Shown: positions 8,997-21,363, counted from the first letter of the stretch. The stretch is 64,000 bases of DNA from Myxococcota bacterium (GCA_040387835.1 JAZKCZ010000002.1:115431-179430); one strand, 5' to 3'. The notes: a model not told the origin generated them from the sequence alone. Program-made: numbers and translations.

Positions 8997-9527
8997 ATGA
9001 CTCCTATTGAACTTGAAATTGGTATGGGAAGAGCCCATTTTTTATTTGAACGTGCTCAAGCAGAGCCTGAGCATCAAATCGTTGGCATTGAATACAAAGC
9101 CCAATGGGTTACCCAAGCGCTAAAAAAACAACATCGTGAACAAATTTATAATGTGACACCAATTCACGGAAATGCGTGGGACATTGTTCCGAAACTATTT
9201 GGACCAGAAAGTCTAGATTTGATCATTGTTAACTTCCCAGACCCTTGGTGGAAACGCAGGCATCACAAACGACGCGTCTTAAACGACAAGTTTATGAAAA
9301 TCCTGCTCCCGATGATGAAGCCCGGAGCGCGGTTTTTCTTTCAAAGTGACGTTAAAGAGCTTTTTGACGTGTATGATCAGCTCCTTTCAGCCTATCTCAC
9401 TAAGGTGCCTTGCGACGTGAACCCGTTGGGAGCGAAATCACACAGAGAGAAAAAATGCGAGGAATCCGGCTTGCCAATATATCGCACGTTGCTCTACAAG
9501 AATCCTCATGTCCAGGCCACAACATGA
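8997..9527 (+). CDS. trmB: tRNA (guanine-N7)-methyltransferase
   Basis: ELEIGMG, GIE, NFPDPW.K.RHHKRR, SD motif. Confidence 0.9.
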   Translation: MTPIELEIGMGRAHFLFERAQAEPEHQIVGIEYKAQWVTQALKKQHREQIYNVTPIHGNAWDIVPKLFGPESLDLIIVNFPDPWWKRRHHKRRVLNDKFMKILLPMMKPGARFFFQSDVKELFDVYDQLLSAYLTKVPCDVNPLGAKSHREKKCEESGLPIYRTLLYKNPHVQATT

Positions 9528-12399
9528 GACCCTTGTTCATCTAAGTAATTCCCGAGCAGCGTCGATGCCAACGCGTGCAGCTTACGAATTTGTTGAAATG
9601 GACGATTCAGAGCAAAGTCTCTCTTATGCAGCCATCGATTCCAAGGCACGCGCCATTGCGGTGGCTCTAAAAGAACAAAAACTTGAGGGCGAGCGCGCGT
9701 TATTGCTGTACGCCCCAGGTCTCGATTACATCACAGCCTTATGGGGCTGCTTTTATGGTGGCGTGACGGCGGTACCAGCTTATCCACCTGATCCAGGTCG
9801 TTTAGACCGAACCTTGCCCCGCCTCATGAATATAGTCGACGACTGTGAAGCGGCCGCCATTTTATCTACAAGCCTCATCCAAAGTTTTGGCGAAGCCAAG
9901 TTACCAGGCAAATGGATCGCTACCGATACAATCGAGCAAGACTTGGCCTCTTATTGGTCAATGCCTAAAATCAATGGCGATACGCTGGCCTTGTTGCAAT
10001 ACACCTCAGGATCAACCGGCTCTCCCAAAGGGGTCATGCTCACGCATCAAAATATCTTGGTTCATGGCGCTTACGTGGAAGACGATGCAAGACTGCATCA
10101 ATACTCGAGAGCCGTTGCTTGGCTACCACCTTATCATGACATGGGGCTGGTCGGCAGCATCATCCAACCCATGTACACCGGCTTTTTATCCACGCTGATG
10201 TCACCGCTGGATTTTCTATCAAACCCTTACAAATGGCTTAAATTACTATCGGACAAGAAAGGCGAAATGAGCGCCGCACCCAATTTCGCCTACGATTTAT
10301 GCACCAGGCGGGTTAGCGAAGAAAAGAAAGCCACCCTCGATTTAAGTAACTGGAAATTTACGATCAACGGCGCAGAACCGGTCAAGCTCGAAACCATGCA
10401 AAACTTCACAAGGGCCTTCGAGTCCTGTGGATTTAAAATGGAGACTTTTTTCCCTTGTTACGGCCTAGCAGAAAGCACGGTCTACGTCTGCGGAGGCTCT
10501 CAAACCGGCGTTCCCAAAGTCAAAGACGGTTTTGTCAGTTGCGGCAAACCCAAAGACCCGTCCATGATCCAAATCAGAGACGGCGAAGTCTGTCTTAAAA
10601 ACGACTACCTTTCGAGCGGCTATTTTAATAAAGCCGAAGACAACCAAAAAGTCTTCAAAGATTATTTCTACACCGGTGATTTGGGCTTTATCGAAAATGG
10701 CGAACTATTTATTACCGGCAGAAAAAAAGACCTGATTATTATCAGAGGCCGCAACTACTATCCTCAAGACATTGAACAATGCGTCGAAAAATCCAGCGCT
10801 AATGTGCGTAAAGGCTGCACCGCAGCATTTTCTATCAGCACAGGCGCCACCGAAGGCCTAGGTCTCGTGGCTGAGTTATCAAACCCTGCCCTTGAAGAAG
10901 AAACAGCTGCGGCCGTCCGGCACGCCGTCAGCTTAGAATTCAATCTAAAAGTGGCAGCGCTCAAGTTTATCCCCGCAAAATCCATTCCAAAAACATCCAG
11001 CGGTAAAATACAACGCTATGCCTGCCGTGAATTGGTAACCATGGATGCATCAGTCAAAAGCATCTTAGGCTTGGATGCTTTAGCCAACATTGAAGAAAAC
11101 AAACCCCTGGTGTCCTACGGCTTAGACTCCTTGATGCGTCAAGAGCTATTGGTGACCTTAAATCTACCAGGCGATACGGTGATCGATGAAAACACAACCC
11201 TAGCCTCATTAAGAGAGCTTCCTGTTTTGGCGGCCAAAAAATCAGAGCCGCCCCGTAAAGCCAGCCAACCGTGGAGCATAAAAAGCCAGATTGAGCTTTT
11301 AGAAAGCACAGGTCTTAAAAATCCATACTTTATCCCGCTAGAAGATCGCTCCTCGGTCAACTTCTCTAACTATAATTATATCGGCCTAGCCGGCCATCCC
11401 GAAGTGTCAGCCGCTGCCAAGGAGGCCATTGACCAATACGGCACTAGCGTATCCGCCAGCAGACTGGTTTCAGGCGAGCGGGTTTTGCACCAAAAGCTTG
11501 AAAAGAAAATCGCAGATTTTATCGGCGTCGAAGATGCAATCGTTTACGTTGGAGGCCATGCCACCAATGTTGGGACCATTAGTCATCTCTTTGGGCCTGG
11601 CGATTTAATTCTGCATGATTCCCTGAGTCACAACAGTATCTTAGAAGGCTGCAAACTATCTGGCGCTAGAGCGATGCCTTTTACGCATAATGATCCAGCC
11701 AGCTTAGAAAGACTGCTGATAAGCCATCGCGCCAACTTCGCCCGTGTCTTAATTGTGATTGAAGGCGTTTACAGCATGGACGGCGATATTTCCGACCTGC
11801 CTGCTTATGTCCACTTAAAAAAAGCCCACGATGCCCATCTCATGGTCGATGAAGCCCATTCCATCGGCGTCTTAGGCAAGACCGGCCGAGGCTTATCAGA
11901 ATACTGCGGCGTAGATCCCAAAGACGTCGATTTCTGGATGGGGACACTCAGTAAATCACTCGCCAGTTGCGGCGGGTACATCGCTGGCGCGCATGAAGTC
12001 GTCGAATATCTACGATACACATCCCCAAGCTTCGTCTATAGTGTTGGCATCTCCCCGCCTAATGCCGCAGCTGCCCTGAAAGCCTTCGAAGTGCTAGAGC
12101 GCGAACCCGAGCGGCTGGTCCGGCTCAATGCAAACGCTAAGCGCTTTATATCGTTATGCAAAGCGCGTGGTATCAATACTGGCCTCAGCAATAACTCAGC
12201 CGTTATTCCAATAATTATTGGCAATTCTTTGGGAACGTTACAGTTATCCGAACGATTACTTTCTCAAGGGATTAATATCAGACCGATTATTTATCCTGCG
12301 GTTGAAGAACATTTAGCCAGGTTAAGAGTTTTCATGACTTCGGAGCATACTGACGGCCAAATCGAAGAAGCGGTGGCGCATCTGGCGAGCAAGCAGTAA
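9508..12399 (+). CDS. Fusion of fatty acyl-AMP ligase, acyl carrier domain and PLP-dependent alpha-oxoamine synthase (SPT/BioF family)
   Basis: LQYTSGSTGSPKG, WLPPYHDMGL, YGLAE, TGDLG, KTSSGK; GLDSL (Ser codon 11128-11130); NYNYIGL, HNS, DEAHSIG, GTLSK. Confidence 0.9.
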   Translation: MSRPQHETLVHLSNSRAASMPTRAAYEFVEMDDSEQSLSYAAIDSKARAIAVALKEQKLEGERALLLYAPGLDYITALWGCFYGGVTAVPAYPPDPGRLDRTLPRLMNIVDDCEAAAILSTSLIQSFGEAKLPGKWIATDTIEQDLASYWSMPKINGDTLALLQYTSGSTGSPKGVMLTHQNILVHGAYVEDDARLHQYSRAVAWLPPYHDMGLVGSIIQPMYTGFLSTLMSPLDFLSNPYKWLKLLSDKKGEMSAAPNFAYDLCTRRVSEEKKATLDLSNWKFTINGAEPVKLETMQNFTRAFESCGFKMETFFPCYGLAESTVYVCGGSQTGVPKVKDGFVSCGKPKDPSMIQIRDGEVCLKNDYLSSGYFNKAEDNQKVFKDYFYTGDLGFIENGELFITGRKKDLIIIRGRNYYPQDIEQCVEKSSANVRKGCTAAFSISTGATEGLGLVAELSNPALEEETAAAVRHAVSLEFNLKVAALKFIPAKSIPKTSSGKIQRYACRELVTMDASVKSILGLDALANIEENKPLVSYGLDSLMRQELLVTLNLPGDTVIDENTTLASLRELPVLAAKKSEPPRKASQPWSIKSQIELLESTGLKNPYFIPLEDRSSVNFSNYNYIGLAGHPEVSAAAKEAIDQYGTSVSASRLVSGERVLHQKLEKKIADFIGVEDAIVYVGGHATNVGTISHLFGPGDLILHDSLSHNSILEGCKLSGARAMPFTHNDPASLERLLISHRANFARVLIVIEGVYSMDGDISDLPAYVHLKKAHDAHLMVDEAHSIGVLGKTGRGLSEYCGVDPKDVDFWMGTLSKSLASCGGYIAGAHEVVEYLRYTSPSFVYSVGISPPNAAAALKAFEVLEREPERLVRLNANAKRFISLCKARGINTGLSNNSAVIPIIIGNSLGTLQLSERLLSQGINIRPIIYPAVEEHLARLRVFMTSEHTDGQIEEAVAHLASKQ

Positions 12400-12757
12400 C
12401 TCCACAAAAATTCAGCTGCAGATGCTCATCGGTTCTTTCACGACAAAGCCCAACCAATTCATCGAGTATGGCCCAGTCGGATGCCCGTTTCAACTGCCTA
12501 TTATGAATATGATTCAATAAGGCTGTATAAGCGTTGGGTTGCTTTACTTCCAAAGCCACCTTTGACAAAAGCATATAAATACCTGTTCGCTCATTTGGTT
12601 CCGCTAAAGCATCCCAATAAAGGTTGTATTCAACTGAGCTCGCAACATCTGGATCCTGTAATAAAAACTGCAAGTTGGGCAATGCAGCGTTTGAATTTAA
12701 CGAAAGCATTAGTATGCCTACAAAAAAAGCCGTAAACATGGTTTTCAACGCGATCAC
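12332..12757 (-). CDS. Hypothetical protein with signal-peptide-like N-terminus
   Basis: Fills the gap between two plus-strand genes; hydrophobic leader FTAFFVGILMLSLNSNA; 68-bp 3' overlap with the fusion gene; start uncertain (12757/12748/12739). Confidence 0.5.
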   Translation of the reverse strand: MIALKTMFTAFFVGILMLSLNSNAALPNLQFLLQDPDVASSVEYNLYWDALAEPNERTGIYMLLSKVALEVKQPNAYTALLNHIHNRQLKRASDWAILDELVGLCRERTDEHLQLNFCGVTACSPDAPPLLRFGRQYAPKS

Positions 12758-12806: not shown

Positions 12807-14180
12807 ATGAACCTGTTTAGAACCAAAGCGATTGGCGAAATCGAACAAGAAAACGGCGGCCTTAAACGATGCCTCTCGGCTGTAGATGTGACCTTTTTAG
12901 GTATTGGCGCGATTATCGGTGCTGGCATCTTTGTACTTACAGGTGTGGTCGCAGCCACCCACACGGGACCAGCCATCGTCCTGTCCTACATTGTCGCAGG
13001 GCTAGCATGCGTTTTCGTTGCGCTGTCTTACGCCGAACTTGCAGCTAGTATTGGAGGCTGCGGGAGTGCGTATGGCTACGCTTACGCAGGCCTGGGTGAA
13101 ATTATTGCTTGGATCATCGGCTGGGATTTGCTGCTTGAGTATGGGCTTGGCATTTCTACCGTTGCAGTTGGCTGGTCCGGTTACGCCAAAAATGCTTTGT
13201 CAGCGATGGGCGTTGAGCTTCCCGCAGCGTTTGTGAACAGCCCGTCAGAAGGTGGATATATCAATCTGCCGGCGGCTTTGATTATCTTGCTTATCTCCGT
13301 CTTACTGTGTGTGGGCGCCAGAGAAAGCTCTCGGTTTAACACGGTCATTGTGTTTATTAAGCTCATCGCCATTGCCGTATTTATTGGCATCGCGTCGTTT
13401 CATGTTGAACCAGCGAACTGGTCCGTATTCGCGCCGTTTGGTTGGAACGGCGTGATGCAAGGTGCTGCGCTGGTATTTTTTGCCTATATCGGCTTTGACG
13501 CGGTATCTACAGCAGCAGAAGAAACCATAAACCCACAGCGCAATCTGCCGATCGGAATTATTAGCTCACTAGCCTTTTGCACGGTTATTTATATCATCGT
13601 GTCGGCTTTGCTCACGCTGGTTGCCCCCTACGGCGAACTCAACGTAAAATCGCCAGTCGCGGAAGTCTTGCTGAATTTAGATCACCGAGTAGCAGCTGGT
13701 ATTATTTCAGCTGGAGCAATCGCCGGGTTAACGACCGTCATGCTGGTGCTATATTATGGATTTTCGCGGGTCTTCTTGGCAATATCTCGTGATGGGCTGC
13801 TGCCAATGCGGTTTTCCCGAATCAATCCTAAAACTCAAACACCAACCGGTATTATTCTTGTAAGCGGCGTCGTCATGGCTGTCATTGCCGGGTTAACACC
13901 TATCGGTAAACTTGCAGAGCTTGTTAACATTGGAACTTTAGCGGCTTTTGTGTTGGTATGCGGCGGCGTGATTGCATTGCGCATCAAGAATCCAGACATG
14001 CCAAGGCCTTTTAAACTTAGCTTTCACCCGCTGATTCCCGTACTGGGCATTATCTTTTGTGTGTATTTAATGCTGAGCCTGCCATTCGAAACATGGCTAC
14101 GATTCATTGTTTGGATGGCTATCGGCTTGATTCTCTATGCTGTTTATGGATACCGAAACAGCGTAGAAGGCAAGCGTTAG
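12807..14180 (+). CDS. APC-superfamily amino acid permease (cationic amino acid transporter-like)
   Basis: GAIIGAGIF, GSAYGY, FAYIGFD, AEE...P.R..P, 12 TM pattern. Confidence 0.92.
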   Translation: MNLFRTKAIGEIEQENGGLKRCLSAVDVTFLGIGAIIGAGIFVLTGVVAATHTGPAIVLSYIVAGLACVFVALSYAELAASIGGCGSAYGYAYAGLGEIIAWIIGWDLLLEYGLGISTVAVGWSGYAKNALSAMGVELPAAFVNSPSEGGYINLPAALIILLISVLLCVGARESSRFNTVIVFIKLIAIAVFIGIASFHVEPANWSVFAPFGWNGVMQGAALVFFAYIGFDAVSTAAEETINPQRNLPIGIISSLAFCTVIYIIVSALLTLVAPYGELNVKSPVAEVLLNLDHRVAAGIISAGAIAGLTTVMLVLYYGFSRVFLAISRDGLLPMRFSRINPKTQTPTGIILVSGVVMAVIAGLTPIGKLAELVNIGTLAAFVLVCGGVIALRIKNPDMPRPFKLSFHPLIPVLGIIFCVYLMLSLPFETWLRFIVWMAIGLILYAVYGYRNSVEGKR

Positions 14181-14758
14181 ACAAACTTGGAGATAATCCC
14201 TACCACTTCTTCCGCTTTATGTAAGAAGTCCTGGCGACTATCTACGACAAAGTGATTCGGGTGGTTTTTCCAAACTTCGAAGGTTTTCTGATCAAGCAAG
14301 GCAGCTTGCTCCGGTGCTTCATTACGCGCCGGATTATTATGATTGAAGCCCCATTCGATCGAAGGCGTGCGCATATGGATGACCATGGCGTAGCGGCTCA
14401 ACTCTTCTTCTTCTGTAGTGCCCACGCTAGCAAAAAAGTCTTCTTTAGAGCCTGGCCAATAAGCTAGGCCATCGAGCACACCGCGGTCACATAAACCAAC
14501 CGGCGCGATCTGATCTTCTTCCAAAATGCGCTCTTGTTCGCGCTGAATATGATAGATCGAGCGCTGCGCTGCCCGAATGGCACTGGGCGTTTGGTGCCTT
14601 AAAAATCCACCTGAATAGATCATGGTCGCTGCTTCATGTAAAACCACCACTTTGTCTTGAAACATATGTTTGGCCATTTCCAACACAGTGGTTTTACCGG
14701 CACCTGGGCCGCCAGTTAGGACAATAAGCTTTGAATGACTTTCAGATAATGTTGGCAT
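14177..14758 (-). CDS. NadR/Ttd14-like (AAA_28) P-loop NTPase/kinase
   Basis: LTGGPGAGKTT, HEAA, CDRG.LD; ATG at 14758 lies inside the end of the aminotransferase. Confidence 0.8.
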   Translation of the reverse strand: MPTLSESHSKLIVLTGGPGAGKTTVLEMAKHMFQDKVVVLHEAATMIYSGGFLRHQTPSAIRAAQRSIYHIQREQERILEEDQIAPVGLCDRGVLDGLAYWPGSKEDFFASVGTTEEEELSRYAMVIHMRTPSIEWGFNHNNPARNEAPEQAALLDQKTFEVWKNHPNHFVVDSRQDFLHKAEEVVGIISKFV

Positions 14759-15882
14759 AATTGTTCCGATTGAACCCATAGGGGATGCGAATGAGAAAAT
14801 AGACAGAATGATTCATTTAGCAGCTTTCGAGCATTTGGAAAGGCGGAGCCATCAAATCCTAATTTTTGGAATAAAGTCTGCTCCGGAACGGTCTTGCTCT
14901 GCCATTGCACAGCCTCAAGACCATGCTGACTCAGCAGGCCCATCACTTGATCGCGCTGCTTCGCTCTCACGCGATATTTGTGATAAACGCTGGTCCTGCC
15001 TACAATTTCGCCAGGCGGTTCAATCGCATTTAAGCCTATTAAGCCAGCATTTAAGATCGCAGCATTAGTTCGTGCGCGTTCGTTCCAGAAATCCAAACGC
15101 TTTAATTGCGTCCTAGCCAGCGCGGCCGTTAACTCAGGCATGCGATACATATATCCAATGCTTACTGAATCATAAGACCGCTTCAAATCAAGAGGCCTAC
15201 TCGGATCAAACACAGAGGTGTCAGACATTTGGATATTTTCACCGAACATTCTAAACCTAGCTGCTCGCTGATAACAGGTTTCATCGTTAGTAACGAAAAG
15301 ACCACCTTCGCCAGCCGCCAGGTTTTTTGACGACTGCAAACTAAAGGCAGCCACTTTGCCAAAGGAGCCTACTTTTTGGCCATGGTAAGTTGCACCATGA
15401 GCTTGGCAAGCATCTTCAATCACCATCAAATCATGCTGGCGCGCAATGGCAAAAATGGCATCGATATCACAAGGCATGCCATGCATATGCACCGGCATAA
15501 TGGCACGTGTCTTTGGCGTAATTGCCCTTTTAACGCAGGCAGGATCTAAGCCTAGACTCCCCAGCTCAATATCAACAAATACCGGTGTGGCACCTTGCTG
15601 CAGTACCGCCATCGCAGAAGCCACGAAGGTAAATGCTGGCACAATCACTTCATCGCCAGGGCCAATACCAATGGCCTCAAGCCCCATATGCAATGCGGCC
15701 GTCCCACTATTAGCGCTCAAGCAATATTTAACGCCTAAGTAAGCCGCAAACTCACGTTCCAAAGACGTGACTTCTGGTGCCAGGGGCCCAGACAAAATGC
15801 CTCGCTCCAGAACATCCAAGACAGCCTGTTTATCCGCGTCAGTAATAACAGGCCAAGACTGATGTTTTAAGCTTTCAGCCAT
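14716..15882 (-). CDS. DegT/DnrJ/EryC1/StrS-family PLP aminotransferase
   Basis: SGTAALH, EDACQAHG, SLQSSKNL..GEGG, YRM.E..AA. Confidence 0.92.
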   Translation of the reverse strand: MAESLKHQSWPVITDADKQAVLDVLERGILSGPLAPEVTSLEREFAAYLGVKYCLSANSGTAALHMGLEAIGIGPGDEVIVPAFTFVASAMAVLQQGATPVFVDIELGSLGLDPACVKRAITPKTRAIMPVHMHGMPCDIDAIFAIARQHDLMVIEDACQAHGATYHGQKVGSFGKVAAFSLQSSKNLAAGEGGLFVTNDETCYQRAARFRMFGENIQMSDTSVFDPSRPLDLKRSYDSVSIGYMYRMPELTAALARTQLKRLDFWNERARTNAAILNAGLIGLNAIEPPGEIVGRTSVYHKYRVRAKQRDQVMGLLSQHGLEAVQWQSKTVPEQTLFQKLGFDGSAFPNARKLLNESFCLFSHSHPLWVQSEQLCQHYLKVIQSLLS

Positions 15883-17033
15883 GCCTGCAAACTCTCGTCT
15901 TGTTTAAATAAGTTATGCTCTACCGGTCGACCAGGCATTTGATAGGGCGCCTTAAAAAACAACGATAGCTGCTCTTGAACTCCAGAGCGTCCTTGACGCT
16001 TGGCCAAGTCAATAAAACGAACCAAATCGAGCACCAAAGGCGCTGCTAGAATCGAGTCTTTGCACAAAAAATTGACCTTGATTTGCATTTTCTCGCCCAA
16101 AAAGCCGGAGATATCAATGTTATCCCAGGATTCTTTGGCATCACCGCGTGGCTTATAATAATGGATATGCACCTGATGATCCTCAACAGGATATCCCAAT
16201 ATGCTGTCTAGCACGCTCATTTTGCTGGTGACCTTGGTTTTATTGGACTCGGGATCGTTTAACACCAAGCCATCGTTGTTGCCCAAAATATTGGCAGAGT
16301 ACCAGCCATCCACTTTCAGATTACGCACCGCAAACATTGGCGCCAATGCAGTTTTAAGAAGCGTCTGGCCAGTTTTACCATCTTCACCAGCTAGCGGAAC
16401 GCCGTTTTTAATCGACATCTCTTGCAGTGCCGGAATATTACTTAGACTTGGCGTAAAGTTTACATAAGGCACGCCACTATCAATGGCAGCATATAGATAC
16501 TTCATGGCCGGTGAAATGCGTTCATCGTTTGCATCAAGGCCTGCTTCAAATGCTGCCAAGGTGCGATGCACATCTGTCACTTCACAGAACTTTTCGGTCG
16601 AAGTCAAATTGACCATCACCAACCGCTCAAGACCCTGACCTGTTTTGAACACAGCCATGTCTTTTTTCATTTGAGCAATTTCTTCTCTAAAAGAGCTACA
16701 TGCCAAAATATTTTTGCCGCTCATGCTGTGCAAAAAGCGCTTCGAAACAGCTGCCTTCCATGGCTTAAAGCTGCTCAAATCGTCTCGCACCAGATTCAGT
16801 AAGTGAGCTGGCAGAACTTCATGGGAAAGCGCAGCTTCATAGGCAGTGTCTTCTCTTAAATCCCAGCCACCGAACCTCAAATCATCGAGTGCGGTCACGT
16901 CAAGACCAACGGTCTCGCTCATCATCCCTTGTCTGGGAGCCAGATTCTTTCGCATCAAAGCAACGCCCGCCATCACGGTTGTAGAAACGGCGCCACTTGC
17001 TCCAATTAAACAGATACCTAATTTTTGACTCAC
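15867..17033 (-). CDS. ino1: myo-Inositol-1-phosphate synthase
   Basis: GASGAVSTT, YVNFTP, GEDGKTGQT, NILGNNDG, SK, DSILAAP..LDL, FFKAP. Confidence 0.92.
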   Translation of the reverse strand: MSQKLGICLIGASGAVSTTVMAGVALMRKNLAPRQGMMSETVGLDVTALDDLRFGGWDLREDTAYEAALSHEVLPAHLLNLVRDDLSSFKPWKAAVSKRFLHSMSGKNILACSSFREEIAQMKKDMAVFKTGQGLERLVMVNLTSTEKFCEVTDVHRTLAAFEAGLDANDERISPAMKYLYAAIDSGVPYVNFTPSLSNIPALQEMSIKNGVPLAGEDGKTGQTLLKTALAPMFAVRNLKVDGWYSANILGNNDGLVLNDPESNKTKVTSKMSVLDSILGYPVEDHQVHIHYYKPRGDAKESWDNIDISGFLGEKMQIKVNFLCKDSILAAPLVLDLVRFIDLAKRQGRSGVQEQLSLFFKAPYQMPGRPVEHNLFKQDESLQAWLKA

Positions 17034-18583
17034 GAAACCTGCTCCTTGTTAATAAACTGTGTAACCAAATCGCACTTTTGCTGATCGATAATTCGGGGAA
17101 ACTTACTTTGGACGCTTCTAAATCCTAGTCGATCCATAATCTTTTGAACGGACCCTGAAAGAAGTTTGTGTGAAACCGGAGGAAGAATCGCCACATCGCT
17201 TAAACGATGTTCACGATAAACTCGATTTTGAATTTTAAGCTCATCGTCAATGGCGGTCATAAATAGATTCAAATCCATCGGCCTTTTTTCAAACTCAAAG
17301 AAAAATTGGTAACGACCTTTCCCAGAAGCGTCAACACCCACTTCTGGGCCGACACAATACTCAACAATAGAACATGAAAATTGAGATTGAGCCTTCGCAA
17401 CGGCCTTTTCGATTTCCACATAAGTAGTCAGTTCTTGAGTCAAAGATAAAACGCCGCTAGGCCTGCCCACAAATTCCATTCGATGCGGATAAACAGAATT
17501 AAACCGAACAAAATCGCCAATATAATAGGCGAATAATCCCGACGACGTGGTCAAAACAATCGAGTAATCTACGCCTGGCTGGACTTCCCACAGCGCCAAA
17601 CGAGGCGCATCATCTCGCCCATGCTTCTCCCTAGGCACAAACTCGAAAAACACCCCTCGATCCGGGATCATCAACAGAGCACGATCCTCCAAATGATCGG
17701 TCACCGAAAATAGCCCACCCTCAGTCGCATTGTAATTATCCATCAAGATAATATCGCGTCCAACACGCTCGTTAATGAGCCTGCGATAAGGATTAGCATT
17801 AACCCCGCCACCAAAAAGCACTCTCAAATTAGGCCATATTTCCTGAATGGTTCGGACGCCGCGGTGCGCCAAAAGCTTGTCGAAAAAAATCGAGAACCAG
17901 CAACTTGTTCCCGAAATCGCGTGCACGTCATAATCCCAGTAGTTCTCTGCGATTGCTTGTAACTTTTGGTTATAGTCCAAAATATCTCGCACGGAAGGCT
18001 TAGGAATCGCCATCGGCCGCGCCAAAGCGGGCAACTCCCGAAACATAATCCCCGGATTTGACCCGGTGAACACGCCGTTTCCTTCCGATTTCAAGACGCT
18101 AGGCGGAAACAACCCCAAGTTATAGCCCCCAACAAAGCCTCTGTCTTTGCTAAGGCGTAGGTACTGAGCAATCACGTCAAACGCAGCTTTCTGCTGCCAG
18201 ACAATCTGCTCTTTCGAAATAGGTAAAAATTTATTCTGCGCGGCGGTTGCTGAAGTACCTGAAGACTGGCCGTAATACGAAATCAGCCCTGGCCAAAGGA
18301 TATCGCGCTCGCCCTGTCTCATCCGCTGGATATAAGGCTCAAACCCAGCATATGGCCTTAAAGGCGTTGCCCTCTTAAAATCAGCATAAGTTTTTACTTT
18401 GGCAAAACCATGCGCCTGACCAAACTCAGTTTCAGCTGCCGTTTTGCAGTGAGACAGCAAGATTGATTCCTGGGTTTTTTGAAGCCGACCTTGTGTTAAA
18501 TTCCCTAGCCACTGATTAAGCCGTCGCCTCGCCAATAGTCCTAAGACTGGATTCAATGCACGAGCCGCGGCAAAACTTTTCAT
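17030..18583 (-). CDS. GH3-family acyl-adenylate/amido synthetase
   Basis: SSGTS, YNATEG, YYIGD motifs; alternative GTG start at 18595. Confidence 0.9.
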   Translation of the reverse strand: MKSFAAARALNPVLGLLARRRLNQWLGNLTQGRLQKTQESILLSHCKTAAETEFGQAHGFAKVKTYADFKRATPLRPYAGFEPYIQRMRQGERDILWPGLISYYGQSSGTSATAAQNKFLPISKEQIVWQQKAAFDVIAQYLRLSKDRGFVGGYNLGLFPPSVLKSEGNGVFTGSNPGIMFRELPALARPMAIPKPSVRDILDYNQKLQAIAENYWDYDVHAISGTSCWFSIFFDKLLAHRGVRTIQEIWPNLRVLFGGGVNANPYRRLINERVGRDIILMDNYNATEGGLFSVTDHLEDRALLMIPDRGVFFEFVPREKHGRDDAPRLALWEVQPGVDYSIVLTTSSGLFAYYIGDFVRFNSVYPHRMEFVGRPSGVLSLTQELTTYVEIEKAVAKAQSQFSCSIVEYCVGPEVGVDASGKGRYQFFFEFEKRPMDLNLFMTAIDDELKIQNRVYREHRLSDVAILPPVSHKLLSGSVQKIMDRLGFRSVQSKFPRIIDQQKCDLVTQFINKEQVS

Positions 18584-18594
18584 GGAGCAGTGCA

Positions 18595-19251
18595 CTAACG
18601 GATCTTAATCGATTGATCCACACCCACTTTGGGACATTTCTTTTGCACAGGACAGCCAGGACAATTTGGCTTTCTGGCGTGGCAAATGCGCCTGCCGTGA
18701 AAGATAAACGCATGATGTGCTTCTAATAACCTGTCTTTAGGAAATAATTTCGTTAAATCCGTTTCAACTTTGGAAGGGTCTTTTTCGGCGGTTAAACCAA
18801 GTCGCCGGGCAATACGCCCGACATGGGTGTCTACCGCGATGGCCTGCACGCCAAAAGCATTGGCCAAAATCACCGCGGCGGATTTTGGGCCGACGCCCGG
18901 GATGCTCTCCAAAGCGTCTCGCTCTTTAGGCACGGCTCCACCAAAATCAGTCATGATTTTCTTACCAGCTAAGACGAGATTTTTGGATTTCATCCTAAAA
19001 AATCCCAACGTTCGAATATAGGGCTCGATATCCGCTGGTGTTGCCTGACTGAAAGCTTTGGCATCAGGGTATGCCTCAAATAAATCCGGCGTTACTTTGT
19101 TGACAGCTTTATCGGTTGTCTGCGCCGATAGCGCCACGGCCACCAAAAGTTGCCAGGGGTCTTTCTTATCATAATCCAGCTCAATTTCCGCATCGGGGAA
19201 TTCAGCGCAAATGGTATCTAAAAAATATAGGGCTTTGGCTTTAGAGGTCAT
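18595..19251 (-). CDS. nth: Endonuclease III
   Basis: LSAQTTD, HhH PGVGPKSA, VDTHV.R, C-x6-C-x2-C-x5-C Fe-S motif. Confidence 0.95.
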   Translation of the reverse strand: MTSKAKALYFLDTICAEFPDAEIELDYDKKDPWQLLVAVALSAQTTDKAVNKVTPDLFEAYPDAKAFSQATPADIEPYIRTLGFFRMKSKNLVLAGKKIMTDFGGAVPKERDALESIPGVGPKSAAVILANAFGVQAIAVDTHVGRIARRLGLTAEKDPSKVETDLTKLFPKDRLLEAHHAFIFHGRRICHARKPNCPGCPVQKKCPKVGVDQSIKIR

Positions 19252-20302
19252 GGGCTATTTTTTCTGCGAAGCCTTTAAAGCGACCATCCGCTTTAATATG
19301 AAACAAAGTTTCATTGGGCTTGCGCAGATAAGCAATACCAATAATATTTGGCTCCGTATCTGTAAATCCAAAAAGAGAAATATGCTCAGGCATTCCTGCG
19401 CTGGAGGTGGTTATATCGCAAGGCATCGGCCCAAACACTTCACCAGCTTTAGCGGCTTTAATGCGCTCCGCATGATGCTGCACATCCTCAGGCGACGCAA
19501 AATAAACGGTATTATATCGGCCAGCTGGTAGATGACTCATGCTGACGGCTTCACTGGTCACTTTGGGCTGGCCGAACACTTTTTGCACAGCATGTTGAAT
19601 TGCCAGTTGAATCTCTTGATCGCTTTGAAACGCCCGGGTTCTAACACAAACGAGTTCTCGATCAGCCAAAAGCCTTTTCGCCTCTGCCTGCGCCTTTTCG
19701 ATGTTCGCTTCTTCAAAATGGAGCCTTTGGATTGGCCATTCACTCAACGAGGCAGAATCGCAAGATGGTAAGTCGATCAACTTTATCGCTGGCTCAGCAT
19801 CTATATCAGTATGGTCAATATTATATCCGGCGCGTCCGTTGCCAAATACGATCAGCTGGATGGGCTGGTCGAAGCGGCGATTTGCTAAATTGCCATAGGC
19901 TAATTCGAAAGCAAACTGCTGGTCTGTGACAGGCGCGGTATCAAGATCTAGGGCGATGAAGAGGTCGGCTGTGGGGTTTGTGCGCCACTTAGATCTCGGG
20001 AGGGTGGTTAGCCAGCCGGAACTTCTGCCCTGCTTTTTTAAAGCAGAGATATCTTGCAGAGTGGTTTTAGCGTTGCCGGATTTACTCGCATCGATGAGAT
20101 AGAATTCGCCTCCATGAGCGACGCAGAAGGTTTTTACATTTCGATGTTGTACCCAGGATTGGATTAGGCTTGCGGCGCGATCGATTCCATTTTGGCAATT
20201 AGGATCGTCGGTCAATCCTAAGGTGTAATTTGAAAAAAATGCTAACGAGCGCGGATTATTCAAATAAAAATCCCGCATGGGCTCATGCTGCCAGTGCATC
20301 AT
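19241..20302 (-). CDS. Hypothetical protein
   Basis: 353-aa ORF overlapping both neighbours in the same orientation; no family recognised. Confidence 0.65.
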   Translation of the reverse strand: MMHWQHEPMRDFYLNNPRSLAFFSNYTLGLTDDPNCQNGIDRAASLIQSWVQHRNVKTFCVAHGGEFYLIDASKSGNAKTTLQDISALKKQGRSSGWLTTLPRSKWRTNPTADLFIALDLDTAPVTDQQFAFELAYGNLANRRFDQPIQLIVFGNGRAGYNIDHTDIDAEPAIKLIDLPSCDSASLSEWPIQRLHFEEANIEKAQAEAKRLLADRELVCVRTRAFQSDQEIQLAIQHAVQKVFGQPKVTSEAVSMSHLPAGRYNTVYFASPEDVQHHAERIKAAKAGEVFGPMPCDITTSSAGMPEHISLFGFTDTEPNIIGIAYLRKPNETLFHIKADGRFKGFAEKIAHDL

Positions 20303-21344
20303 GGACTAACCTCTGGAAGTGTTGCACGCCATTTTCTTTGGCAAGAACTAACTGACCTTGTTCGTAGTAACCTGACGCACAACCACGTTGCACAGCTTCG
20401 CATAAAGCCGTGTCTTCTTTTTGAACTTGGTCTAAAAAATCGACCACGCTGTCTTTGTCACTTTCTGTCACACCTTCGGGGAAGTAAATATCGTAAATGG
20501 CCAACGTTTTGTTCGGAGATATTGGCTCATAAACCGTGCTTGAAACATTCACGATGCCCGGATAGATATTGATGGTAAAGTTGGGCCATAAATAGGACCC
20601 AGCGCCGCGCAGTTTTTTATCCGCGTCTGCCATCTCAGCACCTTTCAACGTACAACGTTGCACTGAATGATAGGCATAAGGCGTCACTTCATAATCATCC
20701 ATGCGGACGATTTTCACCAACTCCGGATGTGCCACCGGGCAATGATAACATTCCAAATAATTATCAATGGTAAGCTTCCAGTTTGCATGGATTTCGTAGC
20801 GCATCTGCCGGTGATGCTTCAGGCTCATTAAATCAATGCCGATTTCAGAAATCGCTTCAGGAAGCCCGTCCATCTGTGACGCAAACGACTGTGGCGCCTC
20901 GAGCAAGCTCACAAACACAAATGGCCCCCATTCTTCGACCGTCAAAGGGTGCAAGGGATAATTGGACTTCATAAACTTGGGATCCGAGTTTGTGGCAGGA
21001 GCCGATTGCAAATCCCCTTGCAGATTCCAAGTCCAAGCGTGATAATGGCACTGGATGCTCTTGCGATTGCCTGACTCGCACAAAACAATTTGGCTACCTC
21101 GATGCCGGCAAACATTGACGAATGCGTTCAAACTGCCTGCTTCGGTACGCACCACAATCACCGGCACTTTTCCAGCAACTCTGCAGGTTATGTAATCGCC
21201 TGGATTTCTAAGCAGATGAGCCGAACCCGCGTAATTCCACATTTTTGAAAAAATATATTTTTGTTCTGAATCGAATATTTCCTGCGAAGTATACCAATGC
21301 CCCGGTATCGTCTTACCACTAAGTAATTGCTCGCTTAAACTCAT
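20283..21344 (-). CDS. Rieske non-heme iron oxygenase alpha subunit (choline monooxygenase-like)
   Basis: CRHRG...CHYHAW Rieske motif, NWK...NYLECYHC..AH, ED...CE.VQ.G. Confidence 0.9.
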   Translation of the reverse strand: MSLSEQLLSGKTIPGHWYTSQEIFDSEQKYIFSKMWNYAGSAHLLRNPGDYITCRVAGKVPVIVVRTEAGSLNAFVNVCRHRGSQIVLCESGNRKSIQCHYHAWTWNLQGDLQSAPATNSDPKFMKSNYPLHPLTVEEWGPFVFVSLLEAPQSFASQMDGLPEAISEIGIDLMSLKHHRQMRYEIHANWKLTIDNYLECYHCPVAHPELVKIVRMDDYEVTPYAYHSVQRCTLKGAEMADADKKLRGAGSYLWPNFTINIYPGIVNVSSTVYEPISPNKTLAIYDIYFPEGVTESDKDSVVDFLDQVQKEDTALCEAVQRGCASGYYEQGQLVLAKENGVQHFQRLVHDALAA

Positions 21345-21363
21345 GCGAAGGCAACAAACCATC

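What the first reader, a model, noticed from the sequence alone, without database searches (positions are those of the whole stretch)
9508..12399. Single-polypeptide FAAL-ACP-alpha-oxoamine synthase: candidate self-contained sphingoid base synthase
Seen: adenylation motifs, a GLDSL phosphopantetheine site in a very short (about 55-60 aa) carrier segment, and a complete PLP oxoamine synthase (DEAH, GTLSK). Known: serine palmitoyltransferases belong to this family and some bacteria feed them acyl-ACP from a dedicated ligase and ACP. Inference: the fusion activates a free (possibly scavenged) fatty acid and condenses it with an amino acid to give a 3-keto long-chain base without CoA or FAS. No bioA/bioD/bioB is in the window, arguing against BioF.
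Basis: partly seen in the sequence, partly recalled or inferred. Interest (0 to 1): 0.75.

Follow-up and report, generated by a model that had tools for sequence, protein, structure and literature searches.

The report
Fused one-protein sphingoid base synthase
One gene fuses a fatty-acid activator, a very short carrier domain and a serine-palmitoyltransferase-type enzyme, so it probably makes the first building block of sphingolipids directly from free (probably scavenged) fatty acids; it is an untested, trimmed-down variant of bacterial routes described in 2022 and 2025.

Summary

- **Serine-type enzyme.** The PLP domain is 52% identical to PfSgaB of Pseudomonas fluorescens, a proven, serine-specific palmitoyltransferase. 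It falls in the same clade (100/99). AU tests reject grouping it with KBL or BioF.
- **Not BioF.** The 96%-complete, 1.83-Mb genome has no bioB or bioD and no second enzyme of this family.
- **Scavenged fatty acid is plausible.** FabD, FabF, FabZ and PlsX were not detected.
- **Carrier can be loaded.** The only phosphopantetheinyl transferase is Sfp-type.
- **Partner reductase.** An extended-SDR reductase gene overlaps the fusion gene in long-form relatives. Among 41 related genomes it occurs in exactly the four that carry the fusion.

The A-CP-AOS layout was catalogued in 2013 and is abundant in metagenomes. This copy is a shortened form: the FAAL-specific insertion is lost and carrier helix I merges with the last FAAL helix.

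Verdict: a new variant of a known kind, of moderate interest.

The parts
9508..12399 (+). Whole gene: FAAL-ACP-SPT-type alpha-oxoamine synthase fusion, 963 aa plus stop codon
   Evidence: ORF list and translation. Pfam and NCBIfam scans. AlphaFold2 model with mean pLDDT 87.3.
9508..11022 (+). Fatty acyl-AMP ligase domain (residues 1-505), all ANL core motifs intact
   Evidence: Best PDB matches are FAALs: 7R7E-G at 411 bits, 3KXW and 3PBK. NCBIfam FAAL subfamilies match at E 1e-93 to 1e-98, below their cut-offs. It is 34% identical to E. coli BL21 AasR.
10501..10584 (+). Site of the lost FAAL-specific insertion (residues about 332-359, between YGLAE and GEVCLK)
   Evidence: The A5-to-A6 spacing is 41 aa here. 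It is 71-77 aa (median 75) in 113 long-form homologues and 37 aa in this genome's own FACL-like ligases. HMMER alignments to FAAL structures break at residue 332.
11023..11238 (+). Minimal acyl carrier domain (residues 506-577); GLDSL with Ser541 at nt 11128-11130
   Evidence: PP-binding scores 22.9 bits against a cut-off of 20.8 on the excised segment. D540 and S541 are invariant in 68 homologues. In the model one helix (500-519) spans the FAAL end and carrier helix I, followed by helices 541-550 and 565-577. The segment is 60% identical to orthologue P0003, against 35% for the following linker.
11239..11307 (+). Flexible linker between carrier and PLP domain (residues 578-600)
   Evidence: pLDDT is below 50 for residues 573-590. 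Identity to orthologues is only 35%.
11308..12396 (+). SgaB-type serine palmitoyltransferase-like PLP domain (residues 601-963); PLP lysine Lys816 at nt 11953-11955
   Evidence: Aminotran_1_2 matches at E 1.6e-51. The domain is 52% identical to PfSgaB and lies in the same clade at 100/99 support. AU tests reject joining it to KBL (p 0.0057) or BioF (p 0.0064).
8997..9527 (+). trmB (tRNA m7G46 methyltransferase); its 3' end overlaps the fusion gene start by 20 nt, so the two are probably co-transcribed
   Evidence: TIGR00091 scores 117 bits, above its cut-off. A trmB-fusion neighbourhood is conserved in L014, L015, L018 and L027.
12807..14180 (+). BcaP-like APC amino-acid permease downstream on the same strand; possible amino-acid supply, link unproven
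   Evidence: NF053761 BcaP scores 598 bits against a cut-off of 690. In orthologous locus L015 the permease starts 5 nt after the fusion gene.
12332..12757 (-). Small convergent ORF (141 aa) with a hydrophobic, signal-peptide-like N-terminus by eye; it overlaps the last 68 nt of the fusion gene
   Evidence: No Pfam hit. Weak positional homologues exist in L014 and L027: 31% identity over 51 aa, E 1e-4.

Best explanation
The gene encodes a homodimeric, three-domain enzyme that carries out the committed step of sphingoid-base synthesis on one polypeptide. Homodimer formation is inferred from established knowledge of the AOS family and from PfSgaB size-exclusion data in PMC12134224.

Proposed steps (all inferred from homology; none was shown experimentally here):
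1. The FAAL domain adenylates a free long-chain fatty acid with ATP.
2. The acyl group moves to the phosphopantetheine arm on Ser541 of the built-in minimal carrier domain. The arm is installed by the genome's only PPTase, which is Sfp-type.
3. The SgaB-type PLP domain (Lys816) binds an amino acid, most likely L-serine. It performs a decarboxylative Claisen condensation with the acyl-S-carrier, releasing 3-ketodihydrosphingosine-like amino ketone and free holo-carrier.
4. An unlinked extended-SDR reductase (genome contig C1:144663-145625) reduces the 3-keto group, either on the free base or after N-acylation as CerR does.

The genome has no detectable type II fatty acid synthase. The acyl chain is therefore probably scavenged.

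This lineage carries a trimmed version of the enzyme. The FAAL-specific insertion and most inter-domain linkers are deleted, and carrier helix I is continuous with the last FAAL helix.
For: **Domains and motifs.** All three domains and their catalytic motifs are intact.

**PLP domain identity.**
- 52% identical to PfSgaB (E 5e-130).
- PfSgaB is shown in PMC12134224 to make 3-KDS and to prefer L-serine almost exclusively.
- PfSgaB nests inside the clade of fused domains at 100/99 support.

**Wider tree.**
- This clade groups with bacterial SPTs and eukaryotic LCB2, apart from KBL, ThAOS and BioF (97/94 to 98/96).
- AU tests reject joining the fused clade to KBL (p 0.0057) or BioF (p 0.0064).

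**Same parts as the characterised split system.** The E. coli BL21 operon encodes FAAL (AasR), reductase, AcpR and spt.
- 34% identity to AasR.
- 36% identity to Spt.
- 30% identity to the reductase, over its N-terminal half only.

**Reductase partnership.**
- Its gene overlaps the fusion gene in L001/L016, L018, L028 and L029.
- An orthologue of at least 62% identity is present in exactly the 4 of 41 relatives that carry the fusion: G000, G002, G014 and G016.
- Fisher p = 1e-5, uncorrected for shared ancestry.

**Carrier under constraint.**
- D540 and S541 are invariant in 68 sequences.
- 60% identity to the orthologue, against 35% for the linker.

**Genome context.**
- An Sfp-type PPTase is present.
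- No other AOS paralogue exists.
- No BioB or BioD.
- No FabD, FabF, FabZ or PlsX.
Against: - No fused member has been assayed.
- No NCBIfam SPT equivalog cut-off is met: 318 against 640, 294 against 500, and 228 against 670.
- The PP-binding match is marginal. With no linker after A10, the carrier's reach to both active sites is uncertain.
- The clade also holds PKS-offloading enzymes of unknown amino-acid specificity.
- SPT recognises serine mainly through water networks (PMC10196870), so specificity cannot be read from residues.
- A tree without LCB2a and BL21 Spt left the clade unresolved against KBL (AU p 0.1).
- No ceramide-synthase-type N-acyltransferase was found. There were no hits for the planctomycete GNAT-like neighbour or for the BL21 cluster neighbours. 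The fate of the base is therefore unknown.
- The reductase resembles BL21 CerR only weakly (30% over half its length) and is not KDSR-type.
- Chain-length preference of the FAAL domain was not addressed.
Confidence: 0.7

Rival explanations
1. The chemistry is the same, but the amino acid is not serine. It could be alanine, glycine or another amino acid. The product would then be a 1-deoxy-sphingoid-like amino ketone or amino alcohol. It could act as a signal or secondary metabolite (CqsA/LqsA-like or PKS-offloading logic) rather than as a sphingolipid precursor.
For: - The clade contains many stand-alone or ACP-fused members. These sit behind FAAL-PKS megasynthases in cyanobacteria and in Terasakiella, next to methyltransferase and export genes.
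- Specificity cannot be read from residues.
- The neighbouring permease is most like the branched-chain amino-acid transporter BcaP.
- No ceramide synthase was found.
Against: - The only assayed clade member, PfSgaB, is almost exclusively serine-specific and is 52% identical.
- The substrate-loop motif YGTSVSASRLVSG is identical in PfSgaB and the window protein.
- In a 1.8-Mb streamlined genome a core membrane role is more plausible than a secondary metabolite.
Confidence: 0.17
2. The carrier segment is a vestigial linker. After losing the FAAL-specific insertion, the ligase domain makes acyl-CoA, or hands acyl-AMP on directly. The PLP domain then uses that diffusible thioester, as classical SPTs can.
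For: - The FAAL-specific insertion is deleted. Deleting it gives FAALs weak acyl-CoA synthesis (PMC8460268).
- The carrier is truncated, with a marginal HMM score and no linker after A10.
- Orthologue P0004 lacks even more of helix I.
- PfSgaB and other SPTs accept acyl-CoA in vitro.
Against: - D540 and S541 are invariant across 68 homologues, including the short forms.
- The carrier segment is conserved like the FAAL domain and far better than the true linker.
- Per PMC8460268, CoA rejection depends mainly on the blocked canonical pocket and the FAAL-specific helix, not on the insertion.
- An Sfp-type PPTase is retained in a genome with very few carrier proteins.
Confidence: 0.08
3. It is a BioF-type enzyme. 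It would activate pimelate and condense it with alanine to give 8-amino-7-oxononanoate for biotin, like the natural BioW-BioF fusion.
For: - TIGR00858 (bioF) is the highest-scoring PLP-domain model at 360.6 bits.
- JGI annotates homologues as 8-amino-7-oxononanoate synthase.
- A natural acid-activating BioWF fusion exists (PMC9544090).
Against: - The score is below the bioF cut-off of 426.45.
- BioB and BioD are absent from a 96%-complete genome.
- E. coli BioF lies on the other side of the tree, and the AU test rejects joining it (p 0.0064).
- Identity to E. coli BioF is only 34% for the window protein. PfSgaB is 29% identical to BioF, against 52% to the window domain.
- The ligase is FAAL-type, not BioW-type.
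Confidence: 0.02

Closest known systems
PfSgaA/SgaB/SgaC of Pseudomonas fluorescens MYb115 (Peters et al. 2025, Nat Commun, PMC12134224)
   Same: - SgaB is an alpha-oxoamine synthase with proven SPT activity and near-exclusive L-serine preference.
- The window's PLP domain is 52% identical to it and lies in the same 100/99-supported clade.
- In both systems the acyl chain is inferred to be delivered on a carrier domain rather than by a classical acyl-CoA pool.
- In both, a separate reductase is proposed to finish the base.
   Different: - In Sga the chain is built de novo by an iterative type I PKS (SgaA), and the AOS is a separate protein.
- Here a FAAL-ACP loading pair with no KS/AT is fused directly to the AOS, so a ready-made fatty acid is used.
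- The partner reductase here is an extended SDR (epimerase/HpnA-like), not the KDSR-like classical SDR SgaC.
AasR / AcpR / Spt (+ CerR-type reductase) of Caulobacter crescentus, E. coli BL21(DE3) and Sphingomonas (Padilla-Gomez et al. 2022, PMC9386255)
   Same: - The logic is the same: a dedicated FAAL-type ligase loads a free fatty acid on a dedicated ACP, which SPT prefers over acyl-CoA.
- An epimerase-family reductase belongs to the set.
- This genome's best matches to BL21 AasR, Spt and the reductase are the fusion protein and the C1 reductase.
   Different: - There the parts are three separate proteins; here they form one chain.
- Identities are only 30-36%.
- The carrier segment has no detectable similarity to AcpR.
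- The PLP domain belongs to the SgaB/LCB2-side clade, not the Rhodobacteria SPT clade.
- The fusion therefore looks like an independent assembly rather than a simple gene fusion of that operon.
'A-CP-PLP2' (AMP-binding / carrier / AOS) proteins catalogued by Milano et al. 2013 (PMC3870968): Blastopirellula marina A3ZWL3, Microscilla marina A1ZVW4, Synechococcus PCC 7002 B1XHP8
   Same: Same three-domain architecture. The long-form homologues found here are mostly Planctomycetota.
   Different: - Those entries are 1070-1190-aa long forms whose product is listed as unknown.
- The window protein is a 963-aa short form. It lacks the FAAL-specific insertion, the FAAL-carrier linker, part of carrier helix I and 10 residues at the AOS N-terminus.
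FAAL-ACP loading didomains of PKS/NRPS assembly lines (structures 7R7E-G, 3KXW, 3PBK; Patil et al. 2021, PMC8460268)
   Same: They are the best structural and sequence matches for residues 1-505. They include the PAYPP proline-rich motif and transfer to a fused carrier.
   Different: Canonical FAALs carry the FAAL-specific insertion, which the window protein has lost. They also hand the acyl chain to a KS or C domain, not to a PLP enzyme.
BioWF natural fusion (pimeloyl-CoA synthetase + AON synthase; PMC9544090)
   Same: An acid-activating enzyme fused to an alpha-oxoamine synthase.
   Different: BioWF uses CoA with no carrier domain, has a BioW-type ligase, acts on pimelate and alanine, and serves biotin synthesis. 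No biotin pathway is detectable in this genome.

Membership tests
Fatty acyl-AMP ligase (FAAL) subfamily of ANL adenylating enzymes | ANL core motifs (A3 P-loop, A5 YGxxE, A7 TGD, A8 hinge, A10 catalytic Lys) | tested here: met
   All motifs are read directly from the translation. Pfam AMP-binding matches at E 3e-43.
Fatty acyl-AMP ligase (FAAL) subfamily of ANL adenylating enzymes | Closest relatives are FAALs rather than acyl-CoA ligases | tested here: met
   The top PDB hits are FAALs, at 411, 339 and 256 bits. NCBIfam FAAL subfamilies outrank FadD-type models (329 against 100 bits), although no curated cut-off is reached.
Fatty acyl-AMP ligase (FAAL) subfamily of ANL adenylating enzymes | FAAL-specific insertion in the N-terminal domain (Arora 2009; PMC8460268) | tested here: not met
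   The A5-to-A6 spacing is 41 aa. It is 71-77 aa in 113 long-form homologues and 37 aa in this genome's FACL-like enzymes. The insertion is present in the family but deleted in this lineage.
Fatty acyl-AMP ligase (FAAL) subfamily of ANL adenylating enzymes | Rejects CoA and transfers acyl only to holo-ACP (blocked canonical pocket, FAAL-specific helix) | not tested
   The pocket residues were not mapped, and biochemistry is needed.
Acyl/peptidyl carrier protein (PF00550) | Conserved (D)S(L) phosphopantetheine attachment serine at the start of helix II | tested here: met
   GLDSL carries Ser541. D540 and S541 are invariant in 68 homologues. The model starts helix 541-550 at the serine.
Acyl/peptidyl carrier protein (PF00550) | Profile match above the Pfam gathering score | tested here: inconclusive
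   The excised segment scores 22.9 bits against 20.8, covering profile positions 6-42 of 67. The domain is not reported in the whole-protein scan at E <= 0.001.
Acyl/peptidyl carrier protein (PF00550) | Four-helix bundle fold | tested here: inconclusive
   The AF2 model gives three helices (part of 500-519, 541-550, 565-577) at pLDDT 71-84. Helix I is shared with the FAAL C-terminus and helix III is reduced to a turn.
Acyl/peptidyl carrier protein (PF00550) | A PPTase able to modify it is encoded in the genome, and the serine is modified | tested here: inconclusive
   One Sfp-type PPTase (AASDHPPT_N + ACPS, 207 aa) lies at C2:669247-669870. Actual modification cannot be tested here.
Alpha-oxoamine synthase family (fold-type I PLP; BioF/KBL/ALAS/SPT) | PLP lysine, stacking His, Asp-x-x-His and C-terminal Arg in register | tested here: met
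   H684, D781, H784, K816 and R940 align with the catalytic residues of KBL, SPT and LCB2 structures. PF00155 matches at E 1.6e-51.
Serine palmitoyltransferase | Reaches a curated SPT equivalog score (NCBIfam NF047599, NF047600, NF047603) | tested here: not met
   Scores are 293.8 against 500, 318.1 against 640, and 227.6 against 670. These models represent the Bacteroidota and Proteobacteria SPT types, not the SgaB type.
Serine palmitoyltransferase | Phylogenetic placement with biochemically proven SPTs | tested here: met
   The domain shares a 100/99 clade with PfSgaB. That clade groups with LCB2/SPTLC2, BL21 Spt and S. multivorum SPT at 98/96, apart from KBL, ThAOS and BioF. AU tests reject the KBL or BioF alternatives. 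Caveat: ALAS, CqsA and cysteate acyltransferase were not included.
Serine palmitoyltransferase | Uses L-serine and a long-chain acyl thioester to give 3-ketodihydrosphingosine | not testable with these tools
   This is inferred only from 52% identity to PfSgaB.
Serine palmitoyltransferase | Accompanied by downstream sphingolipid enzymes (3-keto reductase, ceramide synthase) | tested here: inconclusive
   A reductase partner is strongly supported. No N-acyltransferase was identified, and no bCerS reference or model was available.
8-amino-7-oxononanoate synthase (BioF) | Reaches the TIGR00858 cut-off and co-occurs with bioA, bioD and bioB | tested here: not met
   The score is 360.6 against a cut-off of 426.45. 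There are no BioB or BioD hits in the 96%-complete genome.

The most novel reading that the evidence does not exclude
The carrier-dependent SgaB-type clade would be the closest bacterial sister of the eukaryotic SPT catalytic subunit LCB2/SPTLC2. This clade includes the FAAL-ACP fusions of this Myxococcota-like lineage and of Planctomycetota. Eukaryotic sphingolipid synthesis would then descend from a bacterial, ACP-fed enzyme of this type, rather than from the Alphaproteobacteria- or Bacteroidota-type SPTs.

In my trees three eukaryotic LCB2 sequences are sister to this clade at 99/96 support. They share the 'SYNY' motif variant. However, the AU test does not reject eukaryotes grouping with the other bacterial SPTs (p 0.25), and taxon sampling is thin.
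Probability: 0.2. Interest if true: 0.8.

Novelty: new variant of a known kind. Interest (0 to 1): 0.5.

Why it matters
If the reading is right, several consequences follow:
- Sphingoid-base synthesis can be packed into a single polypeptide that draws on free fatty acids.
- This one-protein route, not the textbook stand-alone SPT, may be a common entry to sphingolipid-type lipids in Planctomycetota and some other poorly cultured groups. A Black Sea survey counted 138 Planctomycetota MAGs with 'Spt-like' proteins without noting domain context (PMC11334938).

In this organism the case is sharper:
- The genome is 1.8 Mb, with no detectable fatty acid synthase and no lipid A pathway.
- It still keeps the fusion and its reductase.
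- That suggests an envelope lipid made from host- or prey-derived fatty acids.

For enzymology, the short form is a natural minimal design. It has no FAAL insertion and almost no linkers. It could show how a carrier domain shuttles between an adenylating site and a PLP site, and it could serve as a compact biocatalyst for amino-ketone lipids.

Tried and rejected
**Literature.** Five literature searches for a characterised FAAL-AOS fusion found none.

**Residue-level prediction of the amino-acid substrate.** Abandoned, because SPT binds serine mainly through waters and the PLP phosphate.

**Trees.**
- The first tree rested on one eukaryotic sequence.
- A tree without LCB2a and BL21 Spt left the clade unresolved (AU p 0.1).
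- I therefore added BL21 Spt, human and yeast LCB2, cyanobacterial members and PfSgaB.
- One PDB call meant to retrieve S. paucimobilis SPT returned only ThAOS.

**Search for an N-acyltransferase (all negative).**
- The planctomycete GNAT-like neighbour has no homologue here.
- The BL21 cluster neighbours have none either.
- The AAT-family acyltransferase next to acpP occurs in 30 of 41 relatives regardless of the fusion, so it is not a specific partner.

**Link between the fusion and loss of lipid A.** Rejected as specific. LpxC is missing from 37 of 41 relatives, across the whole order.

**Ketoacyl-synthase hits.** The weak PF00109 hits are thiolases, not KAS enzymes.

**Reductase in Planctomycetota.** No orthologue was found in two fusion-bearing Planctomycetota genomes, so the pairing is lineage-specific.

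**Prevalence.** The fusion is not universal in Planctomycetota. About 4 of 121 evenly sampled genomes, including the seed genome G041, have a full-length-sized frame.

Full report
**1. The observation**

Window 9508-12399 (+) is one uninterrupted ORF of 963 aa.
- Pfam finds AMP-binding (16-373, E 3e-43), the FAAL/DIP2-type C-terminal subdomain (408-505) and Aminotran_1_2 (617-959, E 1.6e-51).
- The carrier domain is not reported in the whole-protein scan. When excised, it matches PP-binding just above the gathering score (22.9 against 20.8 bits).
- All catalytic motifs are present.
- The N-terminal residues from Met1 are conserved in orthologues. The start at 9508 is therefore right, and it overlaps trmB by 20 nt. 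The database gene call (P0002, 944 aa) is 19 residues short.

**2. The family and the short form**

The full-length protein has thousands of homologues with the same three domains. Of 8000 scored candidates, 7785 reach E <= 0.001, and the best 120 all share the architecture. They are mostly 1070-1190 aa and mostly from Planctomycetota. The layout was catalogued as 'A-CP-PLP2' in 2013, with product unknown (PMC3870968).

The window protein and three close relatives are short forms of 952-963 aa: P0003, P0004 and the fusion in genome G016, at 66-68% identity. Measured differences:

| Feature | Short forms | Long forms | This genome's FACL-like ligases |
|---|---|---|---|
| A5-to-A6 spacing in the ligase | 41 aa | 71-77 aa (n = 113) | 37 aa |
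| A10 motif to carrier serine | 36 aa | median 112 aa | – |
| Carrier serine to start of PLP domain | 65 aa | median 86 aa | – |

- The ligase spacing shows that the FAAL-specific insertion has been deleted.
- The AlphaFold2 model (68-sequence alignment, mean pLDDT 87.3) draws one helix, 500-519. It is both the last FAAL helix and carrier helix I. Helices 541-550 and 565-577 follow, then a disordered linker at 573-590.
- The carrier is not decaying. D540 and S541 are invariant in 68 sequences. The segment is 60% identical to P0003, against 62% for the FAAL domain and 35% for the linker.

**3. What the PLP domain is**

NCBIfam does not settle it. The scores are bioF 361, SPT-CFB 318 and KBL 315 bits, all below their cut-offs. 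Phylogeny and one key comparison do settle it.
- Earlier notes of this scan pointed to Peters et al. 2025 (PMC12134224), which I read. PfSgaB, an AOS partnered with an iterative PKS, makes 3-KDS, prefers L-serine almost exclusively, and incorporates labelled serine in vivo.
- Its sequence, taken from the paper's supplement (machine-read with a few dropped letters), is 52% identical to the window's PLP domain (E 5e-130).
- By comparison it is 34% identical to E. coli BL21 Spt, 33% to KBL and 29% to BioF.
- The substrate-loop motif YGTSVSASRLVSG is identical in the two proteins.

In the final tree:
- PfSgaB, Terasakiella and cyanobacterial PKS-associated enzymes and all fused domains form one clade (100/99).
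- That clade groups with eukaryotic LCB2/SPTLC2 (99/96).
- Both then group with BL21 Spt and S. multivorum SPT (98/96), apart from KBL, ThAOS and BioF.
- AU tests reject holding the fused clade with KBL (p 0.0057) or with BioF (p 0.0064).

Caveats: a sparser tree was unresolved, and ALAS, CqsA and cysteate acyltransferases were not sampled.

**4. The known split system**

The E. coli BL21(DE3) operon characterised in PMC9386255 reads FAAL (AasR), epimerase-family reductase, ACP (AcpR) and spt. The window fusion is this genome's best and only strong match to AasR (34%, E 5e-80) and to Spt (36%, E 1e-61). The function set is therefore the same. However, the ligase is closer to PKS-loading FAALs and the PLP domain is SgaB-type. 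The fusion looks like an independent assembly.

**5. The reductase partner**
- In long-form relatives an extended-SDR gene of about 322 aa overlaps the 3' end of the fusion gene: the Myxococcales MAG (L001/L016), L018, and genomes G014 and G002.
- This genome has a 60%-identical orthologue on another contig, C1:144663-145625. Its neighbours are unrelated.
- Among 41 related genomes, an orthologue of at least 62% identity occurs in exactly the four that carry the fusion: G000, G002, G014 and G016.
- Fisher p = 1e-5, uncorrected for relatedness. The four belong to four genera, two of which also contain genomes lacking both genes.
- Its best models are HpnA-like, SdmB and OleD-type lipid keto-reductases. 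It is this genome's best match to the BL21 reductase, at 30% identity over half its length.

**6. Genome context**
- The assembly is 1.83 Mb in 4 contigs, 96.45% complete. Earlier notes call it an uncultured Myxococcota lineage. The closest named homologue is from a Myxococcales MAG.
- It has no second AOS-family gene and no BioB or BioD.
- It has no detectable FabD, FabF, FabZ or PlsX. The PF00109 hits are thiolases.
- It has no LpxA, LpxB, LpxC, LpxD or LptF/G, although an Omp85 protein is present.
- LpxC is absent from 37 of 41 relatives. That trait is order-wide and not tied to the fusion.
- The only PPTase is Sfp-type.
- Local synteny in close relatives runs PBP1A, Dam, Metallophos, TrmB, fusion, BcaP-like permease.

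**7. Mechanism**

Shown here: intact domains and motifs, clade membership with a proven SPT, and co-inheritance with a reductase.

Inferred:
1. Fatty acid plus ATP gives acyl-AMP.
2. The acyl group moves to acyl-S-Ppant-Ser541.
3. PLP-serine performs a decarboxylative condensation, giving a 3-keto long-chain base.
4. The C1 enzyme reduces the 3-keto group.

Open points:
- Dimer formation is assumed from the family.
- It is open whether the tightly tethered carrier works in cis or across the dimer.
- The downstream fate of the base (N-acylation, head groups) is unknown.

**8. Verdict**

This is a fused, trimmed variant of known bacterial sphingoid-base modules: AasR/AcpR/Spt (2022) and SgaAB (2025). 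It belongs to an abundant but biochemically untested architecture. Interest is moderate. The reduced, FAS-less and lipid A-less host and the possible sister relation to eukaryotic LCB2 are the more unusual aspects.

Noticed in passing
window 14177-18595 (-): A tightly packed operon of a GH3-family amido synthetase, myo-inositol-1-phosphate synthase, a DegT-type aminotransferase and an AAA_28 P-loop protein lies about 1.8 kb downstream of the fusion gene. The AAA_28 gene, and a following gene cut off at the contig end, are also near the fusion in orthologous locus L015. A link to an inositol- or amino-inositol-bearing lipid head group is conceivable but untested. It is the subject of another finding.
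   Followed up: no
whole genome G000 (window is C2:115431-179430): The 96%-complete 1.83-Mb genome lacks detectable FabD, FabF, FabZ, PlsX, LpxA, LpxB, LpxC, LpxD and LptF/G. It keeps AcpP (66% identical to E. coli), thiolases, PlsC and an Omp85 protein. LpxC is missing in 37 of 41 relatives, including genomes of 5-8 Mb.
   Followed up: partly
genome contig C2:656800-658011 (outside the window; locus L045 2801-4008): acpP is followed after 3 nt by a 320-aa AAT-family (PF03417, acyl-CoA:6-APA acyltransferase-like) gene. It is conserved in 30 of 41 relatives. An ACP-coupled Ntn-type acyltransferase in a FAS-less genome is unexplained. It does not co-vary with the fusion.
   Followed up: partly
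window 12332-12757 (-): A small ORF of 141 aa with a hydrophobic, signal-peptide-like N-terminus (by eye) is convergent to the fusion gene and overlaps its last 68 nt. It has weak positional homologues in L014 and L027 (31% over 51 aa) and no family match.
   Followed up: partly
window 19241-21362 (-): A choline/carnitine O-acyltransferase-like gene (PF00755, partial match) overlaps a Rieske ring-hydroxylating oxygenase alpha-subunit gene. This is an unusual pairing for a small bacterial genome and may relate to carnitine or quaternary-amine metabolism.
   Followed up: no
locus L018 (GCA_017116375.1, JAFITA010000002.1): This contig is labelled Sulfobacillus acidophilus. Yet it carries Omp85/POTRA, TamB and the same Metallophos-TrmB...fusion-reductase neighbourhood as this lineage. 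The record is probably a mislabelled or contaminating diderm genome.
   Followed up: no
relatives G005, G007, G010 (same GTDB family as the window's genome): Family members with genomes of only 0.3-0.6 Mb are rated 87-91% complete. This suggests extreme genome reduction, and so a host-dependent lifestyle, within this family. None of them carries the fusion.
   Followed up: no
trees: Eukaryotic LCB2/SPTLC2 (plant, human, yeast) come out as sister to the SgaB-type/fused clade (99/96) rather than to the other bacterial SPTs. The AU test does not exclude the alternative (p 0.25).
   Followed up: partly
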